Sequence record: SRR2962707_1678
Direction: 5' to 3' (one strand)
DNA: 48,781 nucleotides
Shown here: positions 40,626 through 48,627 of the stretch, one piece after another
Numbering within the stretch: the stretch's first letter is position 1
Layout: each line of letters starts with the position of its first letter
The notes under the pieces: model-generated
The model's input: the letters and a program-made list of their open reading frames with translations, nothing else
The model's database searches: none
What the model was told of the DNA's origin: nothing
Made by a program: the position numbers and the translations under genes

Positions 40626-40850
40626 CAGATAGCACCAAGTATTATCGGGGGCATAACGAAAAATGGAAATGAAATTACTGTTGTAGCCAGACCTTCTGAT
40701 GATAATAAGGTACTAGTTCATTACGATTCAGAATTTGATGTGCTTCAATATGTCGATGCTGAATTCTGGGGAGAAGATGGGATTAACCCTCCGATAAAAA
40801 TAACACTAGGACAACTCTTGAGAGAAACACAAATTGATCGAATACCCATA
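40626..40850 (+). pseudogene. Gene fragment, possibly the inverted 3' end of the adjacent sacsin-like gene
   Basis: Protein-like reading QIAPSIIGGITKNGNEITVVARPSD...QIDRIPI without its own credible start, antisense to the tail of the 1193-aa ORF. Confidence 0.45.
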
Positions 40851-43800
40851 AGGCATTCTGAATTTGCTCCTCCAGACCTTGAATCATTAATCAGCAATTG
40901 CCCTGGTGAATGAAAAAATTCGGAGGAAATGCTGTTTTGACTCTCTGTATCAATTGTAATATTCTGAAGTTCATCAGGTAGATCAATATTTTCCTGAGAA
41001 AAATAATCTAAAATTTCCTCGATGTTTGATCTTAGTAAAAAGTCCAGCTTCTTTTCATGCCCGAGTAGGTAAAAGTAACGGGTTAAAACTTCAGGTAACC
41101 TTAAAAGAACGCTATTGGAATACCATGGATCTGATACGTAAAGATTTGGCTTATCAAAATGGACATTGACGTTCTTACTGAAACCAATATTTGGATAAGT
41201 GATCTTCAATTCAGTTGCTTGATGAATCTTTAGTTTACTGACTTTGTCTTGAAGATTACTTAGAACATCTACTTCACTATCACTACTAGACTCGTGTTCA
41301 ACCCATATTTTGAAGAGTGGAATAACACTATTCAAACGCTCAGCTAAAATTGAGCATGGTTCTTTATTTTTTGGAATTAGTTGAAAATCACTTTGCCTAA
41401 GGATTGTTACATTGAAGTGTCTTAAGAGTTTTTCTATGTTTTGGTGTTTTTTGTTCTCAGCGCTTAGAGATAGAAAAGGAAATTGACCCTGGAAAATAGA
41501 TTCGTTTCCATCAATGAAACACATGACCTCATCACAATTTGTAAATTGTCGTTGATTATTTAGTAAAAGTCCAGATTGAGACCATTCTTCGATAAGAGAA
41601 ATATCAGAGGAACTCCAATTAGGGCATGAGTCTAATAAATGGGTATATACTTTTTGAATGCATTTGCGATTTTCACTTTTGACATGTTGCTCATCGGTGG
41701 TATCTGAAGATATGCTATCGAGTAAATCCAAATAGTCGGATAACTCCAAGTTTGTTCGAAAACCAAAGAATGATTTCCAATCGGGAGTTAGTTCTGGGCC
41801 TTTAAAGACAGGCAAGTATTCACCAGCAAGATCTATTATGTCATCCGTATTGAGTAAAACGGAGCTTGCTTTTATGCATTTACCTGTGGCAACAGGTATG
41901 CAATCTTTGTTTTTGATAAACCAGGGAATATAGTTTTCAATTGTGACACCATTAATTTGGCCACCCATGTGAGAATATCCCCAATAGGCTCGTCCAGGTT
42001 CGTTCAATGCTTCCAATTCAATATTCTCAATGACATCCCTCCAGAACCTGATTGATAGCTCATATGAATTGGTCTCATTTAGATATGTTAATGAGGTTAG
42101 ATTTGAAAAGGAGTCAGCTGAAAAGCTGTTATTATAAAATCGATTATTGTACTCGTTAAAAAAATCATCTAACCAACCGAACTGGATAAAATTTTCTGTT
42201 GATGTCTTATTGGGTAATAGGATAGGAGAAATTCCTTCATTTACCCCAAGCATTTTAAAAAAACGTTTCCATTCATCTTTGTCAGCCTTGTCAGTGCAAT
42301 ACTCGTTGCTTACAAAAATGTCTATCCCTAAAACCTCTTCGATTTCAAGTCTTGGAGAATATAAATTAGATAAATAACATTCTTCAGCTATTTGTAAGGT
42401 TCCTTTTTGTGTAAGCAGCTTTATTCTTGATAAACGATTCAGTAAATCTTCTTTAAGCTGATTTTTTCGGTATAGAAGAAATAAATCTTGGATTGTTTGA
42501 ATGGCATTCTGTGCGGTCACATAGCTTTCTATATTGGGAATAAGAGTTTGATGGATATAGGTAATGTCCGTTTTTTCGGCCATACCCAATGTCTCCAGCC
42601 AAAACCTCACTTCTCCTTCTTTTGCTAGCCACTCTTTTAGTGTAGGGTGTATAAATGATAAGACACTTTTTGGGTCCTCCCAATTTTGGTCATCTGGGGC
42701 TGGAAAGCAGAGGTCCGATGGCGTATTTAATACCGCTTTATGATCTCGAATAAATGGCAGCTTCTTGAGGAATTCGATCGATACCTCAGCTGGTTTTTCA
42801 GATTCACAGAGAATCTTAAGATGTTTGATCAGTTGAATATTGTTATCTATAGATAGAACATCTGAAAGGCTTTGTGATTTCAGCAACGTAAGAGCGTCAC
42901 TCCACTCAAAACTGGATGCTCCCAGTTTCTTGAAAATGTGACCAAATCCAGTGTTCGCAGCAAATTTCTCCTTGCCATTTTGATTTTGGTTGATGAAGTT
43001 TTTGATAGGGTCACGTCCAATAAAATCCTTGTCGGAAAGAAACGTGAAGTCAATAATCGCATTCTCAATTTTTACTATTTCCTTTTCATTGGTAATTATG
43101 AAAGGTATAGACTTTAATGCCTCATCAATTCCATTATTGAACTCAATTGCCAACAGGTCATTCATGACAGTTCTATCAGGAATCAATTGATATGCTTGAT
43201 ATTCATATTCGGATGTTACCAATTCAGATATCCACTTAAATATTTCTAAAGGAATGGTTTTGAATAACCACTGATTCCATTTTGAATCTACATGAAGTTT
43301 TTCTCTGCTAGCAGTTGTTAGAAAGCTTGTATTGACCAATATGGGTAATGAGTATCTTGTTTCATCGGTGGGTAGATATGAATATAGAAGTTTGTCCTGA
43401 GGCGATAGTTTCTTAATACCATCTTTTCCAAGCTCTGCTGCCATAGACATCTCTATGGTGTCAGCTTTGAGAAGTTTGTCAGGAATGTTTCTCTCGTCTT
43501 GAAGAGATGTTGTTAGGTCGTCCGGTACCGGAAGGTTAATTGTTGTGGTCAACCAAGTAGATTTTAAATCATCTCCTTCTTTTAATGAAATTTTGTTCTG
43601 TATTGTCCTGTCTATTTCGATTGAAACAGAGGGTATTTGAATATCAAAATCGATACTTGATATATTTCTTAGAAAAAGAAACATATTAAGATTCTTAGAA
43701 AGGACTTCAATGGCCCCTCTGGTTTCCTTTTGATTTTTTAGTTGAACTATAGTGGCAACTTTTGCATCAATGCTTTTTAAGTATTGATTAATTGGTTGGG

Positions 43801-44326
43801 GAATTTCCTGTTCATTCGTGAAAATTGGGATAATTTGCCAGGGGAACTGGAATTTTCTATCATTCTCTTTCTCCCACGTTTCTATTGAATCCCCCCATTT
43901 CCAATCAAAAGGGTATGATGAATCAAACCTGAAATATTCGCCATTGGTGAATATGGTCACACGCTCTGATTGTCCAAAAACGGATTTAAAACCAATGCCC
44001 TTATAGCCCGTTTTATTGGGGTCGGATTTTTTTGTACCATCATCCACGTTGCATATCCCACGAAGATCGCGAGATGTAAACGGTTTTCCTGAATGTGCTA
44101 GGATTAGGTAACCATCTACTATTTTGATCCAAACCTTAACTGGTTCATTATTCTGGTGTGAATCGTCAGCATTTTGAAGTAGTTCATAAATGAATCGTTT
44201 AGAATCAGTATATAAATCTCCTGATAAAGCGTTTAGTGAACGAGCTTGGTTCACTGCAAGGCCAGGTGTAGTGTAGCCTGCTGTGTGTTCTTGGAATATT
44301 TTGTCAATGTAAGGTTTTAGGCTCAT
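40745..44326 (-). CDS. Sacsin/NOV-like protein with N-terminal GHKL (HSP90-like) ATPase; C-terminus possibly disrupted
   Basis: RFIYELLQNADDS, GKPF...D..GIC, TGYKGIGFKSVF; YSYLPT...LP..VN..F; repeated W..F...LG modules. Confidence 0.85.
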   Translation of the reverse strand: MSLKPYIDKIFQEHTAGYTTPGLAVNQARSLNALSGDLYTDSKRFIYELLQNADDSHQNNEPVKVWIKIVDGYLILAHSGKPFTSRDLRGICNVDDGTKKSDPNKTGYKGIGFKSVFGQSERVTIFTNGEYFRFDSSYPFDWKWGDSIETWEKENDRKFQFPWQIIPIFTNEQEIPQPINQYLKSIDAKVATIVQLKNQKETRGAIEVLSKNLNMFLFLRNISSIDFDIQIPSVSIEIDRTIQNKISLKEGDDLKSTWLTTTINLPVPDDLTTSLQDERNIPDKLLKADTIEMSMAAELGKDGIKKLSPQDKLLYSYLPTDETRYSLPILVNTSFLTTASREKLHVDSKWNQWLFKTIPLEIFKWISELVTSEYEYQAYQLIPDRTVMNDLLAIEFNNGIDEALKSIPFIITNEKEIVKIENAIIDFTFLSDKDFIGRDPIKNFINQNQNGKEKFAANTGFGHIFKKLGASSFEWSDALTLLKSQSLSDVLSIDNNIQLIKHLKILCESEKPAEVSIEFLKKLPFIRDHKAVLNTPSDLCFPAPDDQNWEDPKSVLSFIHPTLKEWLAKEGEVRFWLETLGMAEKTDITYIHQTLIPNIESYVTAQNAIQTIQDLFLLYRKNQLKEDLLNRLSRIKLLTQKGTLQIAEECYLSNLYSPRLEIEEVLGIDIFVSNEYCTDKADKDEWKRFFKMLGVNEGISPILLPNKTSTENFIQFGWLDDFFNEYNNRFYNNSFSADSFSNLTSLTYLNETNSYELSIRFWRDVIENIELEALNEPGRAYWGYSHMGGQINGVTIENYIPWFIKNKDCIPVATGKCIKASSVLLNTDDIIDLAGEYLPVFKGPELTPDWKSFFGFRTNLELSDYLDLLDSISSDTTDEQHVKSENRKCIQKVYTHLLDSCPNWSSSDISLIEEWSQSGLLLNNQRQFTNCDEVMCFIDGNESIFQGQFPFLSLSAENKKHQNIEKLLRHFNVTILRQSDFQLIPKNKEPCSILAERLNSVIPLFKIWVEHESSSDSEVDVLSNLQDKVSKLKIHQATELKITYPNIGFSKNVNVHFDKPNLYVSDPWYSNSVLLRLPEVLTRYFYLLGHEKKLDFLLRSNIEEILDYFSQENIDLPDELQNITIDTESQNSISSEFFHSPGQLLINDSRSGGANSECLMGIRSICVSLKSCPSVIFIGGLIPSSPQNSASTY

Positions 44327-44458: not shown

Positions 44459-44659
44459 TTGCTGGTGAATAGAATTAAAGCGGTATTAGAAGAAAAAGGT
44501 ATAAAGCAGACGTGGCTTGCTGACAAGTTGTCAAAGAGCTACAATATGACTAATGCTTATGTACAAAATAGAAGACAGCCTAGTTTAGAAGATCTGTACA
44601 AAATTGCAGAAATACTTGATGTTGATGTTAGACAGCTCATTGAACCATCCAAAAAATAA
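44459..44659 (+). CDS. XRE/Cro-C1 helix-turn-helix regulator
   Basis: NRIK.VL.EKG..QTWLA..L.KS....N....NRRQPSL..L..IA.IL.V; start TTG 44459 or GTG 44465. Confidence 0.9.
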   Translation: MLVNRIKAVLEEKGIKQTWLADKLSKSYNMTNAYVQNRRQPSLEDLYKIAEILDVDVRQLIEPSKK

Positions 44660-44664
44660 GGTGT

Positions 44665-46017
44665 ATGGCTAAGTATATTCCAGAGCAACATATAACAGGA
44701 GAGCTAGGAGTCAATAAGTTTCAAACCTACTGTCTTAAACATAAACCATTTATTATTTTCAGAGAGGAGAGTAAAAATGATTTTGGAATTGATGGAGAAG
44801 TAGAGATCGCAGAATATGATGATACAAAAAAGCTAGTAGCTTCTGGAGAGATAATTAAAGTCCAAATAAAATCAACTTCAAAAGGTAGTTACATACATAA
44901 AGAGACAGAAACTTCATTCGAGTTCCGCGCTAATAAGGATGATATAGAATATTGGAATAGACACAACTTGGGAGTGATTCTTGTCATTTTTGATGAAGTA
45001 AATGAAACCCTGTACGCTAAGAAAATCGATCAATTTGATGTTGTAACCCTAAAAACAAAAGTTCCAATACAGTTTGACAAAGAAAGAAATAGACTGGCTG
45101 TAGGGGACAATGATTTTCGTGAAAGATTTTCCACACAATTCAAATCACGCGTTGATTTCTCAAGAAGTGAAAAAATCGCATTGAATATTTTCCCATTCTC
45201 AAAGATTCCCAAATACCTATTTGAATTTAAAAGCCATTATAAAGACCCCAAGGAGATATATAATATAGTGTCTGGCGATGACGCTCCAAATTTCAAGATT
45301 GTCGGTGATAGTATTTATACAATTTACGATGTTGCACTCTTTTCAGAGTTTAGAGATAAAATCATAGACTACAGTACCAAAGATCGTCATTCATTTAAGA
45401 AATCCCTTCTAGATGATAATCTTCACAATGTTTGCGTAGAACTTATCAATAGACAATTTTCAGAAACAGTCTACAAGAAGAAGATTAACTTCAATAGAAA
45501 GTATAAGCGTTATTTTTTTATGCCTCTATTTCGAGAGTTTGATGAAAAAACTGGCAGATTTCCCACTAGAATTGTCACTTACACACCAAAGAAAAGAAGC
45601 ACAGCTACAAGAACAGTAGTTAGCTATCATGAATACGGGAAGAGCCAGTTTTACAGGCATTTTGCTTTTGAAACAAAGCCAGTTTTAATTCAAGACCAGC
45701 TTTTCTTAATCATCAATCCACAATACTTCTTTACTTCAGATGGCAAAAATCCATTGGCTGATCCTGATGAAATCACTAAACTAACGAACTATTTAACAGC
45801 CAGAGAATTCAATGAACAGAACTTAAATCATATTCATTTTATCCACTCGTATCTGTCCAACAAGTATGGCAAGTTAACACTATGCGAAATAGAAGAGTCT
45901 GAGTTAGTGCTTGGCAATTATTTATCTGCAGACAGTGATTTCAGCATTGCCCTGGATTATACACCTGAAAAATCAACAATTGAGTCAAACCAAAAAAGTC
46001 TATTCGGAGATGATTAA
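44665..46017 (+). CDS. DUF4365 (DREN-type PD-(D/E)xK nuclease)-APAZ fusion, short-pAgo effector partner
   Basis: N-terminal GELG, FRE...DFGIDGEVEI, VQIKST; C-terminal APAZ-like YRHFAF...LIINPQYFFTSDG...EFN; overlaps the pAgo start. Confidence 0.85.
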   Translation: MAKYIPEQHITGELGVNKFQTYCLKHKPFIIFREESKNDFGIDGEVEIAEYDDTKKLVASGEIIKVQIKSTSKGSYIHKETETSFEFRANKDDIEYWNRHNLGVILVIFDEVNETLYAKKIDQFDVVTLKTKVPIQFDKERNRLAVGDNDFRERFSTQFKSRVDFSRSEKIALNIFPFSKIPKYLFEFKSHYKDPKEIYNIVSGDDAPNFKIVGDSIYTIYDVALFSEFRDKIIDYSTKDRHSFKKSLLDDNLHNVCVELINRQFSETVYKKKINFNRKYKRYFFMPLFREFDEKTGRFPTRIVTYTPKKRSTATRTVVSYHEYGKSQFYRHFAFETKPVLIQDQLFLIINPQYFFTSDGKNPLADPDEITKLTNYLTAREFNEQNLNHIHFIHSYLSNKYGKLTLCEIEESELVLGNYLSADSDFSIALDYTPEKSTIESNQKSLFGDD

Positions 46018-47593
46018 GATTGAATTACTAAAAGAACCACTATTAGAATTCGGTGATGACTTCTTGTGTGATGATCCCAAAAAAGGGATTGAAATAGGTG
46101 GGTTCTATTCAAAAAGTCATGCAAGTCATCATTCTGAAATTCACTATGCTTTGATGGGCTCAAAAAGGAATATGGAACTCTTTTCTGAGTGGATTGAGAG
46201 CTTGAATCAGTTCATTGAGGCAAGTGCCTCTAAAAGTTCTCTCATTAATAATGAATCAACGATTATTGATGGTGAAATCTCTGATAACGAACAACTTGAA
46301 TTATTTGGTGAGCAACTATTAACCGAAGATGAAATCAATGAATCGGATACTGATGAACCTACAACTAACAAAAAGTTAAATCCTGACTTTCCCGGATTCA
46401 ATAAGGATTCTCCTTTCAAATCAGAATTTATCCATGACGAATTAAATAGGTCAAGGATAAGGGAAGATGCGATTGAAAAGATTATTAAGAGTAAAAAGTT
46501 AACGAAGCTCGAAAAAGCTGATGAAATCACTCTTTTATTAAAGGAAGGGTTTGAATTTTTGGTAGAAAATTTCTCCACTAAGCCTGACATATGCATAGTC
46601 ATTTTACCCTCCAATGTTTTCAAGCAACTCTCTTCAATTCCTTTTGGGAAAACTCATATCAATTTTAGAAGAAAGCTAAAAGCTGAATTAATATCGGTTT
46701 CTTCGGAAATTCCAATTCAAATTGTACTTGAAGATACCCTTCGAGAAACAAAAAAAAGTTTACAAGACAAATCGATGATCGCTTGGAATTTTAGTGTCGC
46801 TCAATATTATAAAACCAATTCAATTCCATGGTCTTTGACTGATATTGATAAGAATTCATGTTTTATTGGAATAAGTTTTCATAAGCTCATTGATCCTGAA
46901 AAAAGCTTAATGCGGTCTAGTGTGGCTCAAGCATTCAATAGAGAAGGCAGAGGTCTTGTATTTGTTGGAAAACCATTCGAGTGGGACAAGAAAACAACAA
47001 AAGTTGCAGCTCCACATCTCACATATGAATATGCCAAAAATTTAGTTGGAGACATTATTAATACTTATGTAGCTCAAAATCAAGGAATAAGACCAAATAG
47101 AGTAGTTGTTCATAAGACAACCGACTTCTGGAATTCAGCAATTAATGCAGATTATAGTGAAGTTGAAGGGCTAAAGGATGGGATACATGAGGTTTTAGGG
47201 GAAAGCATTGATATAGACCTTGTTACCATAAAAAACAGCGATATCAAGTTATTAAGAGAAAACGGAAAGTATCCAGTGATGAGAGGCACATATGCAGAAA
47301 TTGGTGACGATGATGCTATTCTTTACACAACAGGATATATCCCTTATTTTGAAACATTCCCTGGCATGCATATGCCTCAACCAAAACTCATTAGCCTTTA
47401 TGAAGGTGAAACTTCAATTAAGAACGTTTGTCGGGAAATTCTAGCCTTGACTAAAATGAATTTCAATAATTGTAATTACTATGATAGTCTGCCAATAACA
47501 TTAAGGTTTGCCCAGAAGGTAGGGGAGATCATCCAGTATTTTCCTGAAAATGAAGAATTCAAGCCTCCAAATAGATACTATTTTTATATGTAA
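46010..47593 (+). CDS. Short prokaryotic Argonaute (MID-PIWI), catalytically inactive
   Basis: EPLLEFG, FPGF, FRRKLKA, PIQI, AWNF..A.YYK...PW, CFIGISF, VVVHK, RGT, LYTTG, ILALTKMNFN, LPITLRFA.KVG.I, C-terminal YYFYM; ATGATTAA overlap with upstream gene. Confidence 0.95.
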   Translation: MIKIELLKEPLLEFGDDFLCDDPKKGIEIGGFYSKSHASHHSEIHYALMGSKRNMELFSEWIESLNQFIEASASKSSLINNESTIIDGEISDNEQLELFGEQLLTEDEINESDTDEPTTNKKLNPDFPGFNKDSPFKSEFIHDELNRSRIREDAIEKIIKSKKLTKLEKADEITLLLKEGFEFLVENFSTKPDICIVILPSNVFKQLSSIPFGKTHINFRRKLKAELISVSSEIPIQIVLEDTLRETKKSLQDKSMIAWNFSVAQYYKTNSIPWSLTDIDKNSCFIGISFHKLIDPEKSLMRSSVAQAFNREGRGLVFVGKPFEWDKKTTKVAAPHLTYEYAKNLVGDIINTYVAQNQGIRPNRVVVHKTTDFWNSAINADYSEVEGLKDGIHEVLGESIDIDLVTIKNSDIKLLRENGKYPVMRGTYAEIGDDDAILYTTGYIPYFETFPGMHMPQPKLISLYEGETSIKNVCREILALTKMNFNNCNYYDSLPITLRFAQKVGEIIQYFPENEEFKPPNRYYFYM

Positions 47594-47616: not shown

Positions 47617-48627
47617 ATGGAAACACTGCCATCCAAATTTTTAAAGCTTAAACAAGACAGCAATAGTATCACTTCTAATCCTTTATTGAGACATTTTAAT
47701 CAGGATGCCTTAGATCACATCGAGAAGGAGTCGATCAATGACAAATACATAATGTCTAAGAGAAATAAAATGTTAGATCTGATAAGGAACATGGGTGTTG
47801 ATTTTGACCCTAAGCTTAAAAGTGCCTTTGATGAATACAGTGAAGCATTGGTTTACCTAGATCTTAGGCGAAAGTTTGGTTCAATCACGCCAATTCCAGA
47901 GGAAAAAGGGAAGAAAACACCCGATTTTAAAGTTGACCATCAAATTGATAGTGTCAGTAATATTCTTGTTTTTGCAGAATTGAAATCTTTATCCTTTGCT
48001 TCAGGAAACTTAAATTATAAAGATTCAATGAATCAATCATTGGATGCACAAATCAATATTGAAGAACAACATAAAGCTGGAAATAAGATTGGATTTGGTA
48101 TATCCGAAGTGGCACCATTGAGGAATTTAAATAAAGACTATGATCCATATTCAACCAAGTACTGTGTTGAATCTATTATTGAAAAAATTGATCATAACAT
48201 CAAAGCTGGTCAGTATGAATCAGGAGAAACAGTTCTTTTAATAAATACTGAGCAAATAATATTTCAGAGTAATCATATTGAAGGAGCCTTACCTTTTTAT
48301 CGAGGTGGACAAGTTGATTCATTGATTAGTGGTGTTCAATGGAGTGTAGCATTTGGCAAATTGGGAAATTTAATATTTCGACCGATAGAATTTGAGGGAT
48401 CGAAAAATGTAGATGGCCAATTGAATTTCAATGGGATTTTAGAGTCTTACGATTTCATAAAAGCTATTTGTTTCATTCATCAGTTAAATCATAAGGAGTG
48501 CAAAGTGCTTGGTCTGTATCGATACCACGATCAAAGCGATAACCTGCTGAACTTTCTGAATATTTACTGCGATGTAATCAATGATGATTTAAATAGTCAT
48601 GCTTGGGAAATTGAACAATTGTTATAG
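47617..48627 (+). CDS. Hypothetical protein with PD-(D/E)xK nuclease-like motif
   Basis: Helix EYSEALVY, then KKTPDFKV and FAELKSL; starts 23 bp after the pAgo stop. Confidence 0.6.
   Translation: METLPSKFLKLKQDSNSITSNPLLRHFNQDALDHIEKESINDKYIMSKRNKMLDLIRNMGVDFDPKLKSAFDEYSEALVYLDLRRKFGSITPIPEEKGKKTPDFKVDHQIDSVSNILVFAELKSLSFASGNLNYKDSMNQSLDAQINIEEQHKAGNKIGFGISEVAPLRNLNKDYDPYSTKYCVESIIEKIDHNIKAGQYESGETVLLINTEQIIFQSNHIEGALPFYRGGQVDSLISGVQWSVAFGKLGNLIFRPIEFEGSKNVDGQLNFNGILESYDFIKAICFIHQLNHKECKVLGLYRYHDQSDNLLNFLNIYCDVINDDLNSHAWEIEQLL

What the first reader, a model, noticed from the sequence alone, without database searches (positions are those of the whole stretch)
45991..46306. Beta-clamp-binding-like pentapeptides in both SPARDA subunits
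Seen: the nuclease-APAZ protein ends ...NQKSLFGDD (QKSLF, 45991-46005), and the pAgo has QLELF (46292-46306) inside a low-complexity acidic insert; both are followed by G plus an acidic residue. Established: DnaN-binding motifs follow QL[S/D]LF (QxxLF) and lie in disordered tails or loops. Inference: the complex may dock on sliding clamps and so be aimed at replicating plasmid or phage DNA, where ssDNA targets are exposed. I do not know of this being described for short pAgos. Five-residue motifs can arise by chance.
Basis: inference. Interest (0 to 1): 0.7.

Follow-up and report, generated by a model that had tools for sequence, protein, structure and literature searches.

The report
Clamp-binding-like tail on a SPARDA nuclease
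The nuclease partner of a short bacterial Argonaute defence system ends in a conserved five-residue peptide that looks like the tag DNA enzymes use to hold the replication sliding clamp, so the system may hunt invaders at replication forks; binding itself is untested.

Summary
Both pentapeptides are at the stated coordinates in a genuine SPARDA operon (DREN-APAZ 44665-46017, short pAgo 46010-47593). They are not equivalent.

APAZ tail: QKSLF is a conserved short linear motif. Q-x-x-[LMI]-F lies in the last 25 residues of 78 of 116 full-length homologues. A clamp-motif-like penta- or hexapeptide is present in 94 of 116, against a mean of 6 in shuffled tails. The flanks vary freely in sequence and charge, and AlphaFold2 predicts the tail disordered. 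Y-family polymerases of the same bacterial order use the same penta and hexa forms (14 of 14 DinB termini).

pAgo insert: only an acidic '...LF' is conserved (112 of 121). The Q is kept in 7 of 121, so QLELF is not a conserved clamp motif.

DnaN binding could not be tested because the complex job was not folded. The main rival is that LF anchors the published autoinhibitory C-terminal tail inside the complex; solved proteobacterial SPARDAs also carry LF, without Q in register. My searches found no paper linking Argonautes or defence systems to clamp-binding motifs.

Verdict: a real conserved motif and a plausible, untested replisome tether (about 0.45). It is a new variant of a known system.

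The parts
44459..44659 (+). 66-aa XRE/Cro-type HTH protein, ending 5 nt before the DREN-APAZ start; possible regulator of the operon
   Evidence: Pfam HTH_3 4.8e-9; ORF list
44665..46017 (+). DREN-APAZ (DUF4365 PD-(D/E)xK nuclease plus APAZ), 450 aa, the SPARDA effector subunit
   Evidence: Pfam DUF4365 2.3e-19 at residues 13-142. PADLOC Aga_REase-PNTD1-PNTD2 1.1e-60. PDB DREN-APAZ 9jsb_D 2e-42 with the profile. Q67 and K69 invariant, D43, E45 and E47 nearly invariant.
45955..46014 (+). C-terminal tail (residues 431-450, DYTPEKSTIESNQKSLFGDD) after the last APAZ strand
   Evidence: AlphaFold2 pLDDT below 50 at 432-441, mean 54 for 441-450. Tail length and charge statistics.
45991..46005 (+). 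QKSLF, a conserved Q-x-x-[LMI]-F short linear motif that is clamp-binding-motif-like
   Evidence: 78 of 116 homologues strict, 94 of 116 penta or hexa forms, shuffled mean 6.0 and max 15. Present in 14 (strict) or 19 (any form) of 24 clusters at 50% core identity.
46010..47593 (+). short pAgo (MID-PIWI), 527 aa, start overlapping the upstream stop by 8 nt
   Evidence: PADLOC pAgo_I 7.8e-135. PDB short pAgos 9om4_B 7e-69, 9qbp_B, 9jsb_A.
46226..46375 (+). clade-specific acidic insert in the N-terminal (MID) part of the pAgo (residues about 73-122)
   Evidence: Absent from solved pAgos: query 72 aligns to chain 79 and query 124 to chain 82 of 9om4_B. Present in 121 of 121 listed homologues, median 54 aa, median net charge -10.
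46256..46285 (+). conserved I-x-DGE-[IV] beta-hairpin at the start of the insert (residues 83-92)
   Evidence: DGEV-like in 116 of 121. G88 invariant, I85 nearly invariant. AlphaFold2 strands 83-86 and 89-92.
46292..46306 (+). QLELF in the disordered acidic part of the insert; only LF is conserved
   Evidence: [LMIF]F in 112 of 121, Q..[LMI]F in 7 of 121. pLDDT below 50 at 95-115.

Best explanation
The operon is a SPARDA system: an RNA-guided short Argonaute paired with a DREN-APAZ collateral nuclease. I read the conserved Q-x-x-L-F at the tip of the DREN-APAZ C-terminal tail as a beta-sliding-clamp (DnaN) binding motif. On this reading the flexible tail tethers the complex to clamps loaded on replicating DNA. 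The guide-loaded pAgo then meets the single-stranded template that replication forks expose, which is the only form of target that SPARDA can sense. The pAgo's acidic insert with its conserved LF is more likely a separate element, such as a nucleic-acid-mimicking plug or a weak auxiliary contact, than a second canonical clamp motif.

Shown: the system's identity; the motif's conservation, position and predicted disorder; and its match to bona fide clamp motifs of the same lineage. Inferred: binding to DnaN and the targeting consequence. The tail may serve both as an autoinhibitory plug and as a tether.
For: Identity.

Conservation of the motif:
- 78 of 116 full-length homologues have Q..[LMI]F in the last 25 residues, and 28 of these end exactly at ...LF.
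- Q at -4 carries 3.15 bits, against 0.55-1.41 bits in the flanks.
- A further 13 carry the hexapeptide form Q..[LMIF].[FL] and 3 carry Q..[LMI]L, giving 94 of 116. Shuffled tails give a mean of 6.0 and a maximum of 15 in 500 shuffles.
- The motif is kept in 14 (strict) or 19 (any form) of 24 clusters at 50% core identity.
- It recurs in distant representatives: 30 of 102, against a shuffled mean of 4.6 and maximum of 12. These include terminal QLSLF and QLTLDF.

Positive control in the same order:
- 14 of 14 DinB orthologues end in a clamp motif (12 hexa QLxLxF-type, 2 penta).
- 11 of 11 second Y-family paralogues carry QxxLF, for example QINLF followed by an acidic run.
- The APAZ tails therefore sample the same two interchangeable forms.

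Against a purely acidic plug: in this clade the tail before the motif is net positive in 42, neutral in 13 and negative in 44 of 99, with a median D/E fraction of 0.20. Charge mimicry cannot explain what is conserved.

Disorder: pLDDT is below 50 at 432-441.

Clamp pocket: DnaN of the closest genome-held relative and 23 others of the order keep the ...DGHRL..., P242, N321 and MPVML pocket segments. Calling these pocket residues rests on recalled E. coli numbering.

Literature:
- The consensus QL(S/D)LF at C-termini is given in passages of PMC9690074.
- SPARDA needs ssDNA and cannot unwind duplex, and replication is suspected as the source of ssDNA, in passages of 10.1101/2025.04.08.647717.
- In BabSPARTA the distal tail (436-450) is disordered even in the apo state, in passages of 10.1101/2023.09.23.559129.
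Against: No binding evidence of any kind: the one complex job was not folded.

The Ct tail already has a published role. It is an acidic plug in the nucleic-acid groove, and it contacts DREN.

Solved proteobacterial SPARDAs carry LF with Q out of register: Nba ...AAQGEGLF and Xau ...EMEAQDLF.

Among 102 distant representatives, 25 have LF only and 47 have nothing. The older shared feature may therefore be an LF anchor that is unrelated to the clamp.

22 of 116 near homologues lack Q in register, and 16 of those 22 still have LF.

The pAgo's Q is not conserved.

Shuffle controls ignore relatedness between sequences.

The window's own genome is not held, so no cognate DnaN was examined.
Confidence: 0.45

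Rival explanations
1. Cis-acting anchor. The LF, with Q in this clade, is the hydrophobic anchor of the known autoinhibitory Ct tail. It docks inside the SPARDA complex, in the guide/target groove, a flipped-base pocket or the DREN domain. It is displaced when guide and target bind. The resemblance to a clamp motif is coincidental.
For: XauSPARDA's Ct (414-444) lies in the positively charged groove of the apo form, clashes with the first target base, helps hold DREN closed, and becomes invisible on activation (passages of 10.1101/2025.04.08.647717). The SPARTA Ct is autoinhibitory, and truncations give hyperactivity. Solved Nba and Xau DREN-APAZ tails also carry LF near the end without Q at -4. 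25 of 102 distant representatives have LF only. The pAgo insert conserves an acidic LF without Q, which suggests a shared internal LF-binding site.
Against: The passages I read name only R424:E31 and S241:R33 as Ct/DREN contacts and do not mention LF. In BabSPARTA the distal tail is disordered in the apo state. In this clade the tail is not consistently acidic: 42 of 99 are net positive before the motif. Q at -4 and the penta/hexa interchange are what the clamp pocket tolerates, and an unrelated pocket would not be expected to produce them. AlphaFold2 does not dock either segment in cis in the single chains, but the heterodimer was not modelled.
Confidence: 0.3
2. Docking on another partner. 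The motif recruits or senses something other than host DnaN. Candidates are a phage- or plasmid-encoded sliding clamp, an SSB-interaction-type site, or another SPARDA protomer in the apo dimer or the active filament.
For: Many tails end exactly at ...LF-COOH (28 of the 78 with the strict motif, of 116 examined). Distant tails are acidic with a terminal LF (median D/E 0.28), which recalls acidic-tip motifs such as the SSB C-terminus (recalled, not tested). SPARDA forms apo dimers and filaments with many interfaces.
Against: The filament and dimer interfaces described in the passages read do not involve the Ct. The Q-x-x-L-F register fits the beta-clamp consensus better than an SSB-type tip. No candidate partner gene is conserved next to the operon: the downstream 336-aa gene of the window has no counterpart among the ORFs of 150 aa or more listed for L001.
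Confidence: 0.15
3. Two-site docking. Both the APAZ QKSLF and the pAgo QLELF are clamp motifs, one for each pocket of the DnaN dimer.
For: Both lie in segments predicted as disordered, and both are followed by G plus an acidic residue. The closest relatives keep EQ[LM][ED][LM]F. LF in the insert is conserved in 112 of 121.
Against: Q..[LMI]F is present in only 7 of 121 pAgo inserts, and position -4 is mostly E, D, V or I. Solved SPARDA pAgos have no insert at all.
Confidence: 0.1

Closest known systems
SPARDA (short pAgo + DREN-APAZ): NbaSPARDA, XauSPARDA, EaeSPARDA (PDB 9jsb, 9qbq, 9qbp; PMC12205087, PMC12774872, bioRxiv 10.1101/2025.04.08.647717)
   Same: Same two-gene architecture, DUF4365/DREN nuclease with conserved catalytic positions, APAZ domain, and MID-PIWI short pAgo. 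All have a C-terminal tail after APAZ with an LF near its end.
   Different: The window's pAgo carries an acidic insert of about 50 aa that the solved ones lack. The tail is shorter (20 aa) and only mildly acidic. In this clade it carries Q-x-x-L-F in clamp-motif register, whereas the Nba and Xau tails have Q out of register.
Autoinhibitory C-terminal tail (Ct) of APAZ proteins in SPARTA and SPARDA (bioRxiv 10.1101/2023.09.23.559129; passages read)
   Same: A C-terminal extension after APAZ, with acidic residues after the motif. The published survey reports 16-46 aa tails with 21-45% D/E in the S2A and S2B clades.
   Different: The published concept is charge mimicry by an acidic helix. Here the conserved element is a specific pentapeptide at the tip, while linker charge ranges from -10 to +5. 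The passages I read describe no such motif. The papers' supplementary alignments could not be seen.
Beta-clamp-binding motifs of Y-family polymerases (DinB C-terminus; ImuB-like paralogue) in the same bacterial order
   Same: Same penta and hexa consensus, terminal position, and acidic residues after the motif. Consensus QL(S/D)LF per PMC9690074.
   Different: Position 2 is mostly Q, K or T in the APAZ tails, against L, I or V in the polymerases. Clamp binding is established for the polymerase family in general but not for SPARDA.
Mobile-element and RNP proteins that use the beta clamp to find replicating DNA: Tn7 TnsE, IS and Tn3 transposases, a group II intron-encoded protein (PMC4678854, PMC3971601, PMC11417375, PMC6698660; search listing and abstract starts only)
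   Same: The concept: a clamp contact directs a DNA-targeting machine, RNA-guided in the intron case, to replication forks or lagging strands.
   Different: Those are mobile elements seeking insertion sites. Here a defence nuclease would use the same address to sense invaders. There is no sequence relationship.
NucS/EndoMS, a clamp-tethered PD-(D/E)xK-type nuclease (PMC9690074 passage)
   Same: A nuclease with a terminal clamp-binding motif whose activity is aided by the clamp.
   Different: It is a mismatch-repair enzyme, not a guide-dependent collateral nuclease, and it has an unrelated domain architecture.

Membership tests
SPARDA (short pAgo + DREN-APAZ) | Effector with N-terminal DUF4365/DREN PD-(D/E)xK nuclease domain and conserved catalytic residues | tested here: met
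   Pfam DUF4365 2.3e-19. Q67 and K69 invariant, D43, E45 and E47 nearly invariant in 99 sequences. They align with the GIDG and VQIKS segments of 9jsb_D, whose catalytic E16, D41, Q60 and K62 are named in PMC12774872.
SPARDA (short pAgo + DREN-APAZ) | APAZ domain fused C-terminally to the effector | tested here: met
   PADLOC Aga_REase-PNTD1-PNTD2 1.1e-60 over residues 3-438. The profile matches DREN-APAZ chains over almost their full length.
SPARDA (short pAgo + DREN-APAZ) | Adjacent short pAgo with MID and PIWI domains only | tested here: met
   PADLOC pAgo_I 7.8e-135. PDB short pAgos 7e-69 to 1.6e-28. The genes overlap by 8 nt.
SPARDA (short pAgo + DREN-APAZ) | Guide-RNA- and target-ssDNA-dependent collateral nuclease activity and filament formation | not testable with these tools
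   Needs biochemistry. Known for the Nba and Xau systems only.
Beta-clamp-binding motif (CBM) | Sequence Q-x-x-[LM]-F or Q-x-x-L-x-[LF] | tested here: met
   APAZ QKSLF and pAgo QLELF both match. Consensus QL(S/D)LF per PMC9690074.
Beta-clamp-binding motif (CBM) | Located in a disordered terminus or loop | tested here: met
   pLDDT below 50 at APAZ 432-441, mean 54 for 441-450. pLDDT below 50 at pAgo 95-115.
Beta-clamp-binding motif (CBM) | Motif conserved among homologues while the flanks drift (APAZ tail) | tested here: met
   78 of 116 strict, 94 of 116 penta or hexa; Q(-4) 3.15 bits against 0.55-1.41 in the flanks; 19 of 24 clusters at 50% identity.
Beta-clamp-binding motif (CBM) | Motif conserved among homologues (pAgo insert) | tested here: not met
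   Q..[LMI]F in 7 of 121; only LF is conserved, in 112 of 121.
Beta-clamp-binding motif (CBM) | Physical binding to the hydrophobic pocket of DnaN | not testable with these tools
   The single complex job was not folded.
Autoinhibitory acidic Ct tail of S2-clade APAZ proteins | C-terminal extension of 16-46 aa with 21-45% Asp/Glu | tested here: inconclusive
   The window's tail is 20 aa with 5 D/E (25%). The clade median D/E is 0.20, and 42 of 99 tails are net positive before the motif. Criterion taken.
Autoinhibitory acidic Ct tail of S2-clade APAZ proteins | Occupies the guide/target groove in the apo complex and is displaced by the target | not testable with these tools
   No heterodimer model or coordinates could be inspected.

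The most novel reading that the evidence does not exclude
In the Bacteroidota-type SPARDA clade the tip of the DREN-APAZ tail is a true DnaN-binding motif. Short-Argonaute immunity would then be physically coupled to the replisome. The complex rides or samples loaded clamps, scans the single-stranded lagging-strand template of fast-replicating plasmids and phages with its RNA guides, and fires its collateral nuclease there. The tail doubles as a switch, plugging the groove when idle and tethering when free. The clade's acidic pAgo insert has taken over part of the plug role.
Probability: 0.35. Interest if true: 0.85.

Novelty: new variant of a known kind. Interest (0 to 1): 0.62.

Why it matters
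How short Argonaute systems meet single-stranded target DNA in a living cell, and why replicating multicopy invaders trigger them, is still open. The SPARDA authors themselves only suggest replication as the source of ssDNA. A conserved clamp-docking peptide would give a concrete mechanism that can be tested by mutation. It would also provide a clean separation-of-function mutant (LF to AA). And it would extend the beta-clamp 'address label', known for polymerases, repair enzymes, transposases and a group II intron protein, to guide-dependent immune nucleases. If the motif is instead the anchor of the autoinhibitory tail, it still identifies the key residues of that switch.

Tried and rejected
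It gives no evidence either way, and I did not attempt it by any other route.
- The window's own genome is not held. DnaN and the polymerases were therefore taken from the closest genome-held relative (L001/G001, APAZ 83% identical) and from 40 other genomes of its order.
- The Cell Research version of the Xau paper (PMC12690152) is not held, so I read passages of the preprint instead. Supplementary alignments and figures that might show the tail motif or its contacts could not be seen.
- Literature searches for any link between Argonaute, SPARDA or defence systems and clamp motifs: (3 hits, unrelated uses of 'clamp'; searches checked two of them). None was relevant.
- Earlier scan notes: nothing on this sequence. 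There were only parallel, unverified notes on clamp-like tails elsewhere.
- I rejected reading the pAgo QLELF as a conserved clamp motif.
- I rejected the TTG at 45911 as the pAgo start, because homologues start at MKIELL.
- I rejected 'tail is simply an acidic plug' as sufficient for this clade, because linker charge is not conserved.
- Rows dropped: 5 of 121 APAZ sequences shorter than 420 aa (P0004, P0061, P0099, P0114, P0115) and 30 of 132 new representatives shorter than 420 aa were left out of the tail counts. A1 holds 99 of the 121.
Full report
**What is there.** The window's right end holds a three-gene plus-strand cluster.
- A 66-aa XRE-type HTH gene lies at 44459-44659 (Pfam HTH_3 4.8e-9).
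- A 450-aa protein lies at 44665-46017. It has a DUF4365/DREN nuclease domain (Pfam 2.3e-19, residues 13-142) and an APAZ region (PADLOC Aga_REase-PNTD1-PNTD2 1.1e-60).
- A 527-aa short Argonaute lies at 46010-47593 (PADLOC pAgo_I 7.8e-135). Its ATG overlaps the upstream stop by 8 nt.

The nearest solved structures are the SPARDA complexes. For the nuclease these are 9jsb, 9qbq and 9qbp (2e-42 to 1.4e-35 with a family profile). For the pAgo they are 9om4_B, 9qbp_B and 9jsb_A. The catalytic positions of the nuclease are conserved: Q67 and K69 are invariant, and D43, E45 and E47 are nearly invariant in 99 sequences. This is a bona fide SPARDA operon.

**The observation.**
- QKSLF is residues 443-447 of the nuclease-APAZ, followed by GDD and the stop.
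- QLELF is residues 95-99 of the pAgo, followed by GE.
- The pAgo motif lies in an insert of about 50 residues (about 73-122) that is missing from all solved short pAgos. In the best PDB alignment, query residue 72 pairs with chain residue 79 and query 124 with chain 82.
- The bare pattern Q..[LMI]F is not specific. It occurs 5 times in 14,679 residues of the window's open frames of 150 aa or more, and one of those is a QDQLF in the folded core of the APAZ domain. Everything therefore depends on conservation and context.

**The APAZ tail motif is real.** I examined the query plus the 120 best of 132 homologues, at 27-91% identity.
- 116 are at least 420 aa long. Five truncated sequences were dropped.
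- 78 of 116 have Q..[LMI]F within the last 25 residues, and 96 of 116 have [LMI]F.
- In 28 the protein ends exactly at ...LF. In the rest, 1-11 mostly acidic residues follow.
- Anchored on LF, position -4 is Q in 78 of 96 (3.15 bits). Linker positions -16 to -5 carry 0.55-1.17 bits, and positions -3 and -2 carry 1.2-1.4 bits, with a preference for S, N or T at -2.
- Many members without the pentapeptide carry the other classical form of a clamp motif. 13 have a hexapeptide Q..[LMIF].[FL], such as QTSLQF, QTSLPF, QMTLAL and QQTIEF, and 3 have Q..[LMI]L.
- In total, 94 of 116 carry a clamp-motif-like peptide. Shuffled tails give a mean of 6.0 and a maximum of 15 over 500 shuffles. The shuffle ignores relatedness.
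- Of the 22 others, 16 still have LF.
- To address relatedness, I clustered the 99 sequences of alignment A1 by single linkage at 50% core identity. This gives 24 clusters, of which 14 contain the strict pentapeptide and 19 contain some form.
- In 102 more distant full-length representatives from an exhaustive profile search (30 shorter ones dropped), 30 carry a penta or hexa form. These include terminal QLSLF and QLTLDF. Shuffled tails give a mean of 4.6 and a maximum of 12. A further 25 have LF only and 47 have nothing.
- AlphaFold2 with the family alignment gives a confident fold (mean pLDDT 87.5) but leaves the tail disordered: below 50 at 432-441 and a mean of 54 for 441-450.

**The pAgo motif is only half real.** All 121 sequences examined (the query plus the 120 best of 552) have an insert at this position. 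Its median length is 54 residues and its median net charge is -10.

Two elements of the insert are conserved.
- An I-x-DGE-[IV] segment is present in 116 of 121. AlphaFold2 models it as a beta-hairpin at residues 83-92, and G88 is invariant.
- An [LMIF]F is present in 112 of 121, embedded in acidic residues.

Q at -4 is found in only 7 of 121; those visible in the alignment are the closest relatives, at about 80% identity or more. Elsewhere position -4 is E, D, V or I. The LF region is predicted disordered, with pLDDT below 50 at 95-115. QLELF is therefore a subclade-specific coincidence or a recent gain on top of a conserved acidic-LF element. It is not a conserved clamp motif.

**Comparison with true clamp binders of the lineage.** No genome is held for the window. 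The closest genome-held relative is a Roseivirga MAG (L001/G001). Its SPARDA is 83% identical in the nuclease subunit and keeps both peptides...SNQANLFGDD and EQLELFGEK.
- Its DinB ends ...GHQLTLDF, and a second Y-family polymerase carries QINLFEDAEE.
- Across 41 genomes of the same order, 14 of 14 DinB orthologues end in a clamp motif: 12 hexapeptides of the QLxLxF type and 2 pentapeptides. 11 of 11 paralogues carry QxxLF.
- The APAZ tails therefore use the same two interchangeable forms, at the same terminal position, often with the same acidic continuation.
- The published consensus is QL(S/D)LF at C-termini (PMC9690074, passage).
- DnaN of G001 and 23 relatives keeps the segments I recall as lining the peptide pocket in E. 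coli: DGHRL, P242, N321 and the C-terminal MPVML. The assignment to the pocket is from memory.

**What was already known about this tail.**
[quoted passage not shown] Only its proximal helix (423-436) is ordered; residues 436-450 are disordered.
- A survey in the same paper found 16-46-aa tails with 21-45% Asp/Glu in the S2A and S2B clades (10.1101/2023.09.23.559129, passages).
- In XauSPARDA the negatively charged Ct (414-444) lies in the groove, clashes with the first target base, helps hold the DREN domain closed through R424:E31 and S241:R33, and becomes invisible on activation (10.1101/2025.04.08.647717, passages).
- None of the passages mentions an LF or Q-x-x-L-F motif, and I could not see the supplementary alignments.
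- The solved proteins do carry LF near the end: Nba ...AAQGEGLF plus 4 residues, and Xau ...EMEAQDLF plus 6 residues. Q is out of register in both.

**Weighing.**

For a clamp motif:
- Q in register.
- The penta/hexa interchange, which is characteristic of the clamp pocket.
- The terminal, disordered position.
- The match to the lineage's own polymerases.
- The rest of the tail is not conserved in charge in this clade. Before the motif it is net positive in 42, neutral in 13 and negative in 44 of 99, with a median D/E fraction of 0.20. Charge mimicry therefore cannot be what selection maintains.

Against:
- There is no binding evidence, because the only complex job was not folded.
- A documented cis function exists for this tail.
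- An out-of-register LF is widespread in the broader family and in the pAgo insert. This could point to an older, internal LF-binding site.

The two readings are not exclusive. A tail could plug the groove when idle and tether when released.

My estimates are: clamp docking 0.45, cis-only anchor 0.30, another partner 0.15. A true two-site version involving the pAgo QLELF is about 0.10; that figure lies inside the clamp-docking estimate rather than adding to it.

**Mechanism proposed.** This is inferred. The guide-loaded SPARDA is held by its flexible tail on DnaN rings, which accumulate on actively replicating DNA, and most densely on small, fast-replicating plasmids and phages. There the lagging-strand template is single-stranded. 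The SPARDA authors state that the complex needs ssDNA, cannot open duplex, and probably depends on replication for its target. Target pairing expels the remaining plug, filaments form, and the DREN nuclease fires. The acidic pAgo insert of this clade is a candidate for the plug itself.

**Novelty.** I found no paper that connects Argonautes, SPARDA or SPARTA, or defence systems with clamp-binding motifs. The searches were made, over PMC open-access papers and bioRxiv only. Conceptual precedents exist for mobile elements and a group II intron RNP (listings only) and for the clamp-tethered nuclease NucS. The system is known. The motif and the insert are undescribed features of one of its clades.

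**Context.** The operon sits in a defence island. The divergent upstream gene at 40745-44326(-) is a TmtA (Tiamat) homologue (PADLOC 1.6e-298).

Noticed in passing
window 40745-44326 (-): The 1193-aa protein divergently upstream of the SPARDA operon is a near full-length match to PADLOC TmtA (Tiamat defence system), E 1.6e-298. Pfam sees only a sacsin-type domain at residues 39-137. The region is therefore a defence island.
   Followed up: partly
window 47617-48627 (+): A 336-aa ORF starts 24 nt after the pAgo stop, on the same strand. It has no Pfam or PADLOC match, and no counterpart appears among the ORFs of 150 aa or more listed downstream of the pAgo in the related locus L001. Function unknown; it may be a separate cargo gene.
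   Followed up: partly
window 44459-44659 (+): A 66-aa XRE/Cro-type HTH gene ends 5 nt before the DREN-APAZ start, so it may be an operon-internal regulator. I did not check whether related SPARDA loci keep it.
   Followed up: no
window 46256-46285 (+); pAgo residues 83-92: The start of the clade-specific pAgo insert holds a strongly conserved I-x-DGE-[IV] element (116 of 121; G88 invariant) that AlphaFold2 models as a beta-hairpin. Its role is unknown and it is not described in the SPARDA passages I read.
   Followed up: partly
APAZ tails and pAgo inserts of the near homologues (P0003-P0242): In this clade the pAgo insert is always strongly acidic (median net charge -10). The APAZ tail linker is often lysine-rich (42 of 99 net positive before the motif), unlike the acidic tails described for SPARTA and SPARDA. 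This may reflect charge complementarity, or transfer of the plug role from the tail to the insert.
   Followed up: partly
L035/L061 (G001 contig 15) and L037: In the Roseivirga MAG the second Y-family polymerase (internal QINLF) lies next to a second DnaE-like gene. This fits an ImuB/DnaE2-type mutasome cassette.
   Followed up: no
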